The notes under the pieces are model-generated. The model worked only from the letters and a program-made list of their open reading frames with translations. It made no database searches and was not told the DNA's origin. Shown here piece after piece: positions 532 to 4,715 of a stretch of DNA of 64,000 nt. How positions within the stretch are numbered: the first letter of the stretch is position 1; each line of letters begins with the position of its first letter. A program made the position numbers and the translations under genes. Location of the stretch: positions 1-64,000 of the forward strand of contig JANNXA010000012.1 in assembly GCA_031409275.1 (NCBI GenBank), given 5' to 3'. The stretch comes from Planctomycetota bacterium. Its GTDB lineage: Bacteria; Planctomycetota; B15-G4; SIAN01.

Positions 532-712
532 GCGGCCTGCGTAGCGGAGGGGAAGGAGTAGGGAGGCGCTTCGAGCTGACTCTGTCGAGCGAGTGCGTTT
601 GCTGCCAGCTCCAAGTCTGCGGGTAGAAGACAGCCGCGTGATCGGGATGAGCATGAAGAAGCTGTGCGGCGATGCTCGAGCCGGACGGTGGCTTTGGAGG
701 GGGACTCTGCCG

Positions 713-3700
713 ATGAACCGACCGGCGCCATCCCCATTCCTCGCGGTTCCGCACAGCGAGTGGATCGAGAGCAACGATCTCGCGTTCGCGATCTATGACC
801 GTTACCCGGTGACGCCCGGGCATTCGTTGGTCGTTCCGCACCGGCAGGTCGCGACATGGTGGGACGCGACGCGCGAGGAACAGCGGGCGATCTTCGAGCT
901 CGTCGATCTGGTCCGAACGCGGCTTCAGGTCGAGCGTGCGGCGAAGGCGTTCAACGTCGGCTTCAACGCTGGAGCGCTCGCGGGACAGACGGTCGCTCAC
1001 ACGCACGTGCATGTGATCCCGCGCTACGAAGGCGACGTGCCCGATCCGCGTGGTGGCATCCGCTGGGTGGTCCCCTCGAAGGCGAACTACCTCGTCGCGA
1101 GATCGCCGCACACAGCAAACTCCGTGCTGCTTTCCGGGGGCGATGATCGCTTGCTGCGGAAACTGCGCGGCCTTTTCGCCGATCGGCGCTTCGATCGCGT
1201 CGACCTCGTCGTGAGCTTCGTGATGAGGAGCGGCGTTGAGGCGCTCGCCGATGCATTCGAGTCGGCGCGCCAGCGAGGTGCACGGATTCGCGTCCTCACG
1301 ACGGACTACCTCGGCGTGACGGAAGTGGCGGCGCTCGCGCGCCTGCTCGATTGGAGCGAGGACGCTCCGGATCGGTTGGCGGTAAGGGTGTTCCAGAGCG
1401 GGGCGACGAGTTTTCATCCGAAGAGCTACGTCTTCTGGGGATCCCAAGACGGCGAGGCGCAGGGCATCGTCGGAAGCAGCAACCTCAGTCGATCGGGGTT
1501 GTCCGCTGGGATCGAGTGGAATCTCGTCGTTGACGCCGTCGACGACCTAGTACGTCAATTCGAGACGCTCTGGAGCGACGCGCGCTCCGTGCCGCTCACG
1601 CATGCCTGGCTCGACGGCTACCGCCCACGCTCCCGCGCCGCGATCGAGTCGCGCGAGTTCATGGTCGTCCGCGAGACGCTCGAGGAGGTTGTGCCTCATC
1701 TAGTCCAGCGCGAGGCGCTCGAAGCGCTCGAGCGCGCGCGGAGCCGAGGAACGCGCGCAGGGCTCGTCGTCATGGCGACCGGCCTTGGCAAGACCTTCGT
1801 CGCGGCGTTCGACTCGCGCCACTTCCAGCGTGTGCTCTTCGTCGCACATCGCGCCGAGATCTTGCGCCAAAGTCGGGATTCCTTCCGGCGCGTGCGTCCG
1901 GAAGCCGATCTTGGGCTGTTCAATGCCGAGGAGCGGATGCCCACGGCTGAGGTTGTCTTCGCGAGCGTCCAAACGCTCGTTCGCCGACTGGACGAGTTCG
2001 CGCCCGATGCATTCGATTACGTGGTGGTCGATGAATTCCACCACGCCGCCGCGGCGAGCTATCGTCGGATCATCGATCACTTCCAGCCCCGCTTTCTGCT
2101 TGGTCTCACGGCGACGCCCGAGCGGATGGACGGTCAGGCGTTGCTCGCGCTTTGTGGTGACGAGGACGCACCTCTCTTCGAGTGCAACCTGGTCGATGGC
2201 ATTCGCCGCGAACTCCTCTGCCCGTTCGAGTACTTCGGAGTGCACGACTCGGTCGACTTCTCTCCGATCCCTTGGCGGAACGGCAAGTTCGATTCCGACG
2301 CGTTGACGAAGGCCGTAGAGACGCGCGAGCGCGCCGACCATGCGCTGCGGGAGTGGCGAGCGCGCGCGCAGAAGCGGACGCTCGCGTTCTGCTGCACTGT
2401 CAGCCACGCCGACTTCATGGCACGCCACTTCATTAGCGCAGGGGTGCGCGCCGTAGCGGTCCACAGCGAGACGACGAGCGCGCCGCGCGCCGAGTCGATC
2501 GAGCGGCTCAAGGCCGGCGAGCTCGACGTCGTCTTTTCGGTCGACGTCTTCAACGAGGGGCTCGACGTTCCGAGCGTCGACACGATCCTGATGCTGCGTC
2601 CTTCGGAATCTCCGGTGGTGTTCCTCCAGCAGCTCGGCCGAGGGCTTCGTCGAGACCAGCCCGGCAAGGTCCTGCGCGTCGTCGACTTCATCGGAAACCA
2701 CCGTTCCTTCTTTCTGAAGCCGCGCACGTTGCTCAGTCTCGGCGCGACATCGATGCCGAGCGTGGCGGCCACGCTGAAGGCGATTGAGAGTGGAGAGTTC
2801 GGGCTTCCTCCGGGTTGCTCGGTCGACTACGAACTCGACCTCGTCGACGTGTTCCGTCGGCTCGTGCGGATGGGGGCCCACGACGAGCTCGAGGAATGGT
2901 GCCGCGAGCAGCTCGCGGAGACGGGCAGCCGGCCGTCGGCCGATCAAGCGTTTCACGCCAACTTCGATCCCGGAGCCATGCGTCGCAAGCAGAGTGCGGG
3001 GGGGCTGGTTCGACTTCCTAACGCAGATCGACCAACGTGGCGATGGGGACGAGGGCGGTCGGTTCTTGAGCCCGGTGGAGTCGGGTGCGCTTCAAGCGTG
3101 CGGCGATTTCCTCAGAGCGCTTGAAGTCGAGAGCCTGACGAAGAGCTTGAAGCTCGTCACTCTGAAGGCGCTGCTTGCCGACGGAACGCTGCTCTCCGGT
3201 GCTCCGATCCAGCAGATTGCGGCGACGGCGCGCGCGCTCGTCCGTCGCGATCGCCGGCTCCTCGCCGACGTGGCCTCGAACGGCGGTCCCGATGCGCGTT
3301 CGATCGACGACGACGCATGGATCAAGTACTGGCGGAAGAACCCGATTGCGGCGTGGACCGGTGAGGGGAGCAACAAAGCGCAGCTCTTCTTCCGACTCGA
3401 AGGGGAGCGCATGGTCCCGCGCTTCGTGGCGTCGGACGATTGCTCCGAAGCGCTCTGCGCGATGGTGTCGGAACTGGTCGAGTGGCGACTAGCGGCGTAT
3501 CTCAAGAACCGTCGTCCGTTGGCGCCTGGAGTGGTCCGTTGCAAGGTGAGCCACTCCAGCGGAAACCCGATCGTCCGCTTCCCCGATCGCGGCCGCGAGG
3601 CGCTGCCGTCTGGGACTGTGGAGTTCCGTGCGAATGGGAACACCTACGAAGGTGACTTCCAGAAGATCGCGCTGAACGTCGCGCACAAGAGCGGTGAGAT

Positions 3701-4715
3701 CGGCAACCTCCTTCACGCTCTGCTACGTGGCTGGTTCGGCCCGGTCGCCGGCCACTCCGGAACGAACCACGCCGTGTTGTTCGAGCTTGTCGATGGTCTT
3801 TGGACGATGCGCCCCGACGCAGAAGCCGTTCCATCGGCTTCGTCGGTAGGGATCATCGTCCCGCTCTTCCCGAACTACGCAGTTGCCTGCGGAGCGTTCG
3901 ACCATCCGCAGCCCGAGACGATCGCGACGAAACGAACGACGATCGTCCCGATCGTTGGTGCGCCAGCCCCGGACGCCGGCGATTTCCTCGTCTTCGCGCG
4001 TGGTGACTCGATGGACGGAGGTAGTGATCCAATCCGCCACGGCGACCCGTTAATGCTCCGCTGGGCGCGAGGCGTCGATCGGCGGCAGCTCGTCGGCCAA
4101 GTCGTGCTGGTTCGGCAGGGCGATGCACGCAATGCCCCGACCGCGCTGAAGCGACTCGGCGCAGACGGTCGCGGCGGCTTTCTCCTTCGCTCGGACAACG
4201 TCGCCGCGGGACTGGATCCGATCGAGCCCACGGCGGCGAACCGCATCGTGGCACTCCTGGTGCGCAAGCTCCGACAAGTCGAGTTCAATCCGCTCGCAAC
4301 GGAGATGCACCGCCAGTATCGGCGCGAGGACATCCCCTCGCTCTATGGAAGCACGTACAACCCTGGCAACTGGAACTCGGGCCACGTCTCCCTCGACGGT
4401 CACACGCTGTTGCTCGTAACGCTCGACAAGTCGGAAATGGCGCAGGGAGGCACGTATCACGATGAGTTCGTACACGGTGATCGTTTGATCTGGTCGAGCC
4501 AGAGCTCGACATCGCAGGAGAGCAAGCGCGGACGCGAGTTGCTCGACTGTCTCGATACCGGTCGCGAGATCCACTTGTGGGTGCGGCGGCGAAAAACCGA
4601 CGTCGTCTTTACCTACTGCGGACTCGCCGTCTCGATCGAGGCGACTGGAGACAAGCCGATCCGGATTACTTGGCGCCTTCTCGATTCGGCGCCGGCGATC
4701 CTCCTTGGCAAATGA
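713..4715 (+). CDS. HIT + PLD-family nuclease + SF2 (DExH) helicase + S24 peptidase-like + DUF3427/SRA-like protein, SauUSI-like type IV restriction enzyme; frameshifted at G7 tract 2998-3004
   Basis: SD GGAGGGG before ATG 713. HIT triad HTHVH; PLD HPK...GSSN; Walker A MATGLGKT, DEFHH, GLTATPER, QQLGRGLR. In the +1 frame after 3004: GGWFDFL, GDSM...LKRL (S24) and C-terminal YRREDIP...NWNSG...LVTLDK...WSSQS (DUF3427-like). Removing one G gives a single 1333-aa ORF. Confidence 0.8.

What the first reader, a model, noticed from the sequence alone, without database searches (positions are those of the whole stretch)
3855..4265. Intact LexA/UmuD-like self-cleavage cassette inside a restriction-type enzyme
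Seen: VPLFPNYAVACG (Cys-Gly at 3888-3893), GDSM (Ser codon 4008) and LKRL (Lys codon 4149). Known: S24 proteins autocleave at Ala-Gly or Cys-Gly using a Ser-Lys dyad when stimulated by RecA-ssDNA filaments. Inference: DNA damage or phage recombinase/ssDNA signals could cut the target-recognition domain off the nuclease-helicase. That would either disable restriction during SOS or release a non-specific nuclease, so it may be a built-in proteolytic switch.
Basis: partly seen in the sequence, partly recalled or inferred. Interest (0 to 1): 0.7.

Follow-up and report, generated by a model that had tools for sequence, protein, structure and literature searches.

The report
LexA-type self-cutter inside restriction enzyme
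A family of bacterial restriction-type enzymes carries the self-cutting module of the DNA-damage repressor LexA between two predicted DNA-reading domains, where damage signals would likely cut off the modified-base reader and switch the enzyme off, but the copy in this window is itself split by a frameshift.

Summary
The motifs are real: Cys-Gly 3888-3893, Ser 4008, Lys 4149. They fold like the lambda cI cleavable fragment (Z 13.4). The window's gene is split by a frameshift at a G7 run (2998-3004), also seen in three runs' contigs, so here the cassette is out of frame with the nuclease-helicase.

Relatives are single ~1,320-residue proteins: HIT, PLD nuclease, SF2 motor, winged helix, B3-like domain, S24, SRA (SauUSI-like). 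Of 114 with the insert, 96 keep site, Ser and Lys; five, in three lineages, lost all three together; 87 others lack the cassette.

Best reading (0.4): RecA-filament-triggered self-cleavage detaches the SRA reader and switches restriction off. Against: a sister clade keeps site, Ser and RecA-contact residues but has Arg for Lys in 120 of 120, and a B3-like domain would stay on the nuclease. No cleavage or RecA binding was shown.

The scan has noted S24 tails on other defence enzymes before; this internal placement was not among its notes, nor in the ten paper searches' listings or the passages read.

The parts
713..3124 (+). 5' part of the split gene (ORF A; open from 593, likely start ATG 713): HIT, PLD nuclease, SF2 helicase, start of the coupler; leaves the homologues' frame at about 3000
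   Evidence: (PADLOC type IV mREase E 2e-106)
761..1030 (+). HIT domain with HxHxH motif
   Evidence: Pfam PF01230 E 3e-19; motif at 998
1148..1573 (+). PLD-family nuclease domain, HxK motif at 1415
   Evidence: Pfam PF13091
1694..2650 (+). SF2 helicase-like motor: Walker A 1775, DEFHH 2030, motif VI 2627, all intact
   Evidence: Pfam ResIII and Helicase_C
2998..3004 (+). Run of seven G at the frameshift that splits the gene
   Evidence: present without gap in contigs of X1, X2, X4
3075..3512 (+). Winged-helix domain, also similar to the sulfur-binding domain of McrA-type enzymes (predicted)
   Evidence: model; Cdc6 WH Z 9.0, SprMcrA SBD Z 7.9, rmsd 3.1, 111 aligned
3519..3833 (+). B3-like DNA-binding domain (predicted)
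   Evidence: NgoAVII B3 Z 7.6, rmsd 3.0, 96 aligned; FUS3 Z 7.4; repeated with a second model, Z 6.9-7.1
3855..4280 (+). S24 (LexA/UmuD/cI-type) cassette, no helix-turn-helix of its own
3888..3893 (+). Cys-Gly, predicted scissile bond
   Evidence: register with UmuD; conservation
4008..4010 (+). Predicted nucleophile Ser
4149..4151 (+). Predicted general-base Lys
4299..4685 (+). SRA-fold DUF3427 domain, predicted modified-cytosine reader
   Evidence: Pfam PF11907 E 3e-16; SauUSI 7clg E 6e-07, Z 13.5

Best explanation
The stretch is a LexA/UmuD-type S24 module inserted between a predicted B3 domain and the SRA domain of a SauUSI-like nuclease-motor, and in intact relatives it likely cuts itself at Cys-Gly on meeting a RecA-ssDNA filament, which would detach the modified-base reader and switch restriction off. 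Shown: the architecture, the fold, the conserved site and dyad, and the frameshift in this copy. Inferred: (1) the uncut protein is the active enzyme, as relatives without the cassette keep all catalytic motifs; (2) RecA filaments trigger the cut, as for LexA, UmuD and cI; (3) without the SRA the motor is not activated, as SauUSI's ATPase needs target binding; (4) the new C-terminus may also expose the nuclease-motor to proteases. The effect would be a built-in restriction alleviation during DNA damage. The window's own copy is likely a recently broken or slippage-prone allele.
For: 96 of 114 insert-bearing proteins keep site, Ser and Lys, against a median column conservation of 0.46. The five that lost the dyad also lost the site and fall in three separate places on a helicase-core tree. 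The cassette is cleanly absent in two other clades, which keep PLD, Walker A and motif VI in 34 of 34 and DExH in 33 of 34 full-length proteins checked, so cleavage is not needed to make a complete enzyme. Half of the RecA-contact pocket of PMC9926225 (passages) is kept: Phe eight residues before Ser in 99 of 99, Phe/Tyr before the site in 98 of 99. The model matches cI and LexA chains with their cleavage region, including RecA-bound ones (8gmu, rmsd 3.2 over 146 columns; 8s7g Z 10.6). SauUSI ATPase is stimulated by target recognition (PMC7913695 passages). The genome has RecA, two LexA-like genes and ClpX. One cassette-less relative (P0094) carries a different, tail-type S24.
Against: A sister clade has Arg for Lys in 120 of 120 examined while Ala-Cys-Gly, Ser and the pocket are invariant. 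In the window's clade the other RecA contacts are weak: a large hydrophobic residue three before Lys in 4 of 99, two acids in the patch in 0 of 99, although one LexA-like protein of this genome also has Ala there. The B3, S24 and SRA domains are predicted with pTM 0.85, so the pieces may stay together after a cut. A B3-like domain stays on the nuclease. The cut would leave Val/Ile-Ala-Cys in 112 of 141 aligned regions, not the Ala-Ala that ClpXP needed in the screen of PMC10862746 (passages). The window copy is frameshifted.
Confidence: 0.4

Rival explanations
1. The cassette is mainly a RecA-filament docking or sensing domain: it recruits or allosterically gates the enzyme at ssDNA-rich sites such as phage replication or recombination, and cleavage is slow, optional or absent.
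For: Arg at the general-base position in 120 of 120, with invariant site, Ser, Tyr three before it (120 of 120) and an acid six before it (106 of 120). Invariant Arg indicates selection, not drift. That LexA Lys-to-Arg mutants cleave poorly is recalled, not from a call.
Against: Lys is present in 99 of 99 of the main group and 26 of 27 of the group with a diverged C-terminal domain; the Arg form is one clade. A pure docking role does not need Ser and Lys.
Confidence: 0.25
2. Cleavage re-aims or unleashes the nuclease: losing the SRA leaves PLD, motor, winged helix and B3, a PLD-plus-B3 combination like NgoAVII, which then cuts unmodified DNA and kills the infected or damaged cell.
For: The B3-like domain lies on the nuclease side of the cut. 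The Arg clade, which probably does not cleave, lacks B3 in 120 of 120. Protease-activated defence nucleases exist (10.1101/2025.07.28.667249, abstract and outline).
Against: B3 is kept in most cassette-less and decayed relatives (36 cassette-less rows on the tree), so it has a job without cleavage. The link between B3 loss and Arg is a single event, and P0136 has both B3 and Arg. SauUSI's ATPase is only marginally active without a target.
Confidence: 0.2
3. The module cleaves, but the trigger is not host RecA: a phage recombinase, ssDNA itself or general stress.
For: The acidic patch and one pocket residue are poorly kept in the window's clade. A LexA-like protein that departs from the RecA rule is reported (PMC7101444, abstract start in search listings only).
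Against: Two pocket aromatics are near-invariant, and the Arg clade keeps the whole RecA signature.
Confidence: 0.12
4. The cassette is a vestigial spacer with no function.
For: 87 relatives lack it and five have it decayed.
Against: Site and dyad are among the most conserved columns of the insert across proteins about 40-67% identical in this region.
Confidence: 0.03

Closest known systems
SauUSI (type IV, ATP-dependent, 5mC/5hmC-dependent restriction enzyme; PDB 7clg)
   Same: PLD nuclease, SF2 motor and C-terminal SRA/DUF3427 domain in this order.
   Different: Adds a fused HIT domain, a B3-like domain and an S24 cassette before the SRA. SauUSI has a linked NUDIX gene instead (PMC3141236 passage). 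Modification dependence is untested here.
UmuD, LexA and lambda cI (peptidase family S24)
   Same: Fold, Ser-Lys dyad, Cys-Gly site in UmuD's register, part of the RecA-contact pocket.
   Different: No repressor helix-turn-helix; sits inside a 1,300-residue enzyme; a cut would separate enzyme from reader; one clade has Arg for Lys.
Restriction alleviation of EcoKI (ClpXP removes HsdR)
   Same: A helicase-nuclease shut down by proteolysis after DNA damage (PMC12707154 passages).
   Different: There the protease is external and the system is type I; here it would be built into a type IV-like chain and depend on RecA filaments.
PLD-plus-B3 restriction enzymes (NgoAVII, BfiI)
   Same: PLD nuclease with a B3-fold domain (subunit make-up from PMC7913695 passage).
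   Different: B3 lies after the motor in one chain; identity 7%; Z 6.9-7.6 only; no paired methyltransferase seen.
C-terminal S24 tails on DUF2075, type III Res and large DEAD/DUF1998 helicases
   Same: An S24 module with its own site on a defence nuclease-motor; two such tails seen here.
   Different: This cassette is internal, mostly Cys-Gly, and groups apart from the two tails and two LexA-like proteins tested (SH-aLRT 98, quick tree); a cut would remove a functional domain.

Membership tests
S24 self-cleaving proteins (LexA/UmuD/cI) | S24 beta fold | tested here: met
   2ho0 Z 13.4, rmsd 2.8, 122 aligned; LexA 3k2z Z 12.2; Foldseek
S24 self-cleaving proteins (LexA/UmuD/cI) | Ser-Lys dyad | tested here: met
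   Window Ser 4008, Lys 4149 in register with LexA; 99 of 114 insert-bearing proteins have both. The sister clade has Arg.
S24 self-cleaving proteins (LexA/UmuD/cI) | Ala-Gly or Cys-Gly site in a loop before the catalytic core | tested here: met
   Aligned with UmuD's Cys-Gly; 106 of 114
S24 self-cleaving proteins (LexA/UmuD/cI) | RecA-filament contacts (hydrophobic pocket and acidic patch) | tested here: inconclusive
   Two aromatics near-invariant, third pocket residue and patch weak in the window's clade; complete in the Arg clade
S24 self-cleaving proteins (LexA/UmuD/cI) | Autocleavage at alkaline pH or with RecA filaments | not testable with these tools
   Needs protein
LexA/cI repressors | N-terminal helix-turn-helix directly before the site | tested here: not met
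   The preceding domain is all-beta B3-like; not filed as a repressor
SauUSI-type type IV restriction enzymes | PLD nuclease with HxK | tested here: met
   85 of 85 cassette-bearing relatives checked
SauUSI-type type IV restriction enzymes | SF2 helicase-like ATPase | tested here: met
SauUSI-type type IV restriction enzymes | C-terminal SRA/DUF3427 domain | tested here: met
SauUSI-type type IV restriction enzymes | One polypeptide | tested here: not met
   Window copy is split; relatives are single chains. The window copy is therefore a broken allele of a SauUSI-like family, not a working member.
SauUSI-type type IV restriction enzymes | ATP-dependent cutting of 5mC/5hmC DNA | not testable with these tools
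   Needs protein
PLD-plus-B3 enzymes (NgoAVII/BfiI) | B3-fold recognition domain | tested here: inconclusive
   Z 7.6 and 6.9 in two models, several B3 chains over the whole domain, but under Z 8 and no sequence match
PLD-plus-B3 enzymes (NgoAVII/BfiI) | Paired methyltransferase gene | tested here: inconclusive
   None among the nine neighbours scanned; the window's contig begins 712 bases upstream

The most novel reading that the evidence does not exclude
A RecA-filament-triggered cut changes what a single restriction enzyme targets: from SRA-read modified DNA to B3-read unmodified DNA, turning a phage-DNA shredder into a suicide nuclease, while a sister lineage has fixed a Ser-Arg non-cutting version as a pure RecA-filament sensor.
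Probability: 0.2. Interest if true: 0.85.

Novelty: new variant of a known kind. Interest (0 to 1): 0.62.

Why it matters
Restriction alleviation is known as an external protease acting on type I enzymes. A self-cleaving LexA-type module inside the enzyme would be a direct protein-level link from the SOS signal to restriction, and would predict windows of openness to foreign DNA during DNA damage. The family supplies natural controls in single genes: Lys, Arg, decayed and deleted forms. The window's own allele is broken, so the interest lies in the family.

Tried and rejected
Assembly error as cause of the split: not supported, though two of the three runs may be the source and all three are one study. 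Conserved slippage site: the eight distinct intact loci that cover the junction have no G run longer than three there; the genome has 100 runs of exactly seven G or C. Single-sequence searches of the cassette against solved structures gave only chance hits, as did the B3 part and an Arg-clade fragment outside its SRA. Foldseek found no fold for the winged-helix/B3 model; the wide search did. PHROGs: only a weak repressor hit. NCBIfam: nothing for ORF B. Phage records: no match; plasmids: three SRA-only matches. A first locus scan found none. No conserved partner gene in eight loci inspected. No RNA holder listed. The complex predictor (RecA plus cassette) and the protein atlas were not available, so binding was not modelled. 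A local Arg-clade profile did not reach the Lys column of LexA; that register rests on the multiple alignment with anchors and on spacing to the downstream motif. The ClpXP-degron idea is weak for Cys-ending products. Ten paper searches listed no paper on such a fusion.

Full report
Observation. Pfam gives this ORF a DUF3427 hit (E 3e-16) and a weak S24 hit under the cut-off (E 0.004); HIT, PLD, ResIII and Helicase_C lie in a different ORF, 593-3124, which PADLOC scores as a type IV methyl-directed enzyme (E 2e-106). Four full-length homologues change frame at about 2986-3004, at a run of seven G. Contigs of runs X1, X2 and X4 cross it with no gap; X3 does not cover it and X5 holds only chance pieces. 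X1 and X2 may be the source and all three are one study. All catalytic motifs of both halves are intact, so the break looks recent. The eight distinct intact loci covering the junction have no long G run there.

The family. A search for longer relatives returned 200 hits, 120 listed, mostly 1,310-1,350-residue single chains. In the first 82, Ser and Lys are present in 82 and Ala-Cys-Gly in 80. Adding 148 new proteins from the representative search (935 hits, 150 listed) gave 268 proteins plus the window ORF. Of these 229 could be classed and 40, mostly fragments, could not. 115 have a 130-196-residue insert before the SRA (114 after dropping the window's own product), 87 have a gap of at most 32 residues, and 27 have an S24 but no match to my SRA profile. 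Of the 114: 96 intact, 3 changed at the site only, 5 lost site, Ser and Lys together, 10 have Arg for Lys. Median column conservation in the insert is 0.46. The sample is biased towards the query.

History. On a FastTree tree of the helicase core (149 rows, cassette columns not used), presence or absence of the insert needs two changes, the cassette-less proteins form two groups, the five decayed ones sit in three places, and the Arg forms share one branch (midpoint root, no bootstrap). Cassette-less (34 checked) and decayed (5) proteins keep PLD and motor motifs. P0094, inside a cassette-less group, ends in an Ala-Gly-type S24 tail that groups with a tail on another helicase of this genome and apart from the internal cassettes (42 rows, quick tree). 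Most of the 27 'no SRA' proteins carry a related but diverged C-terminal region after the S24; that it is SRA-like is my reading of the sequences, not tested.

Structure. The model of window 3513-4712 has pLDDT 92.9 and pTM 0.85. It resolves into three domains: B3-like (FUS3 Z 7.1, NgoAVII Z 6.9), S24 (lambda cI cleavable fragment Z 13.4, rmsd 2.8, 122 aligned, range including the loop) and SRA (SauUSI Z 13.5, SUVH5 Z 10.2). A second model (window 3075-3833) gives a winged helix (Cdc6 Z 9.0; McrA sulfur-binding domain Z 7.9) and B3 again (Z 7.6). The B3 call rests on middling Z values. A family profile aligns the loop with UmuD's and the Lys with LexA's.

RecA contacts. Gao et al. (PMC9926225, passages) place the RecA L2 loop in a pocket of residues eight and six before Ser, three before Lys and an aromatic before the site, with an acidic patch four to six before Lys. 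In the 99 main-group proteins the first is Phe in 99 and the aromatic Phe/Tyr in 98, but a large hydrophobic residue three before Lys occurs in 4 and two patch acids in 0; one LexA-like protein of the genome also has Ala there. The genome has RecA, two LexA-like genes, ClpX and one C5 methyltransferase match.

The Arg clade. A search from P0207 gave 362 hits; the best 120 were examined. Ala-Cys-Gly, Ser, both Phe and Tyr three before the base are each 120 of 120, an acid six before it 106 of 120, and the base position is Arg in 120 of 120; none matches the B3 profile. This clade is tightly conserved overall (median column 0.875), so invariance weighs less than in the main group. It is the strongest result against cleavage as the general function.

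Mechanism. SauUSI is a dimer whose ATPase is stimulated by target recognition and only marginally by non-specific DNA (PMC7913695, passages; 10.1101/2025.10.16.682607, passages). Since cassette-less relatives look complete, the uncut state is probably active, and a cut that removes the SRA most simply switches it off (0.4). LexA-like proteins expose degrons on cleavage (PMC5742171, passages), but the Cys-ending product fits the ClpXP Ala-Ala rule poorly (PMC10862746, passages). Rivals: docking without cleavage (0.25), re-aiming through B3 (0.2), another trigger (0.12), vestige (0.03). No step of the mechanism was shown by experiment or by a complex model.

What is in print. Ten searches listed no paper on an S24 inside a restriction enzyme; I saw listings and abstract starts only. 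Term look-ups in main texts found no LexA or S24 mention in PMC12458937, PMC12839542, PMC13056530 and 10.1101/2024.04.23.590562 (92), and no LexA mention in PMC3141236, PMC12707154, PMC6765204 and 10.1101/2025.10.16.682607 (35). The LexA passages shown from PMC3765255 describe no such fusion (33); PMC12984324 had none of my terms (125); 10.1101/2025.07.28.667249 was seen as abstract and outline (93). PMC6765204 notes a caspase domain on an SRA-HNH enzyme as a presumed regulator (passage). Supplements were not read; homologue tables of the SauUSI and DUF3427 papers could list such proteins, and most subscription papers are outside the library. Automatic annotations already name the fusion ('helicase/SOS-response repressor LexA'). 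The scan's notes describe C-terminal S24 tails on other defence enzymes and gave nothing for this sequence, this architecture or this genome.

Verdict. A real, selected S24 cassette inside a SauUSI-like family; a new variant of known kinds; the window's allele is broken. Interest 0.62.

Noticed in passing
G000:C4:39522-45452 (minus strand; L008, L058): A 1,976-residue DEAD/MZB (DUF1998-type) helicase in the same genome ends in a tail-type S24 with Ala-Gly site, Ser, Lys and a Phe three before the Lys.
   Followed up: partly
L059:2136-4553: Two ORFs from an intact relative lies an 805-residue Schlafen-group-3 (DUF2075) helicase with its own S24 tail, so one island holds two S24-bearing enzymes.
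   Followed up: partly
P0207, P0340-P0458: Clade with Arg at the S24 general-base position and a Lys four residues later (119 of 120); many members carry an N-terminal SAM-dependent methyltransferase domain in place of HIT.
   Followed up: yes
P0094 residues 1281-1435: A cassette-less family member carries a C-terminal tail-type S24.
   Followed up: yes
P0168, P0209, P0231, P0241, P0248 and others, after the S24: A shared ~230-residue C-terminal region with no Pfam match in those scanned replaces the usual SRA; its second half also resembles the C-terminus of P0153.
   Followed up: partly
L024:1861-1864: Another relative changes frame inside its SRA domain, and a second DUF3427-helicase gene lies on the opposite strand of the same locus.
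   Followed up: no
window 713-4715: GC 0.65 against 0.70 for the rest of the window, and lower third-position GC (0.77-0.80 against 0.87 in one neighbour), consistent with acquisition; the contig starts 712 bases upstream.
   Followed up: partly
window 3075-3512: The winged-helix domain resembles the phosphorothioate-binding domain of McrA-type enzymes (Z 7.9); whether it reads sulfur-modified DNA was not examined.
   Followed up: no
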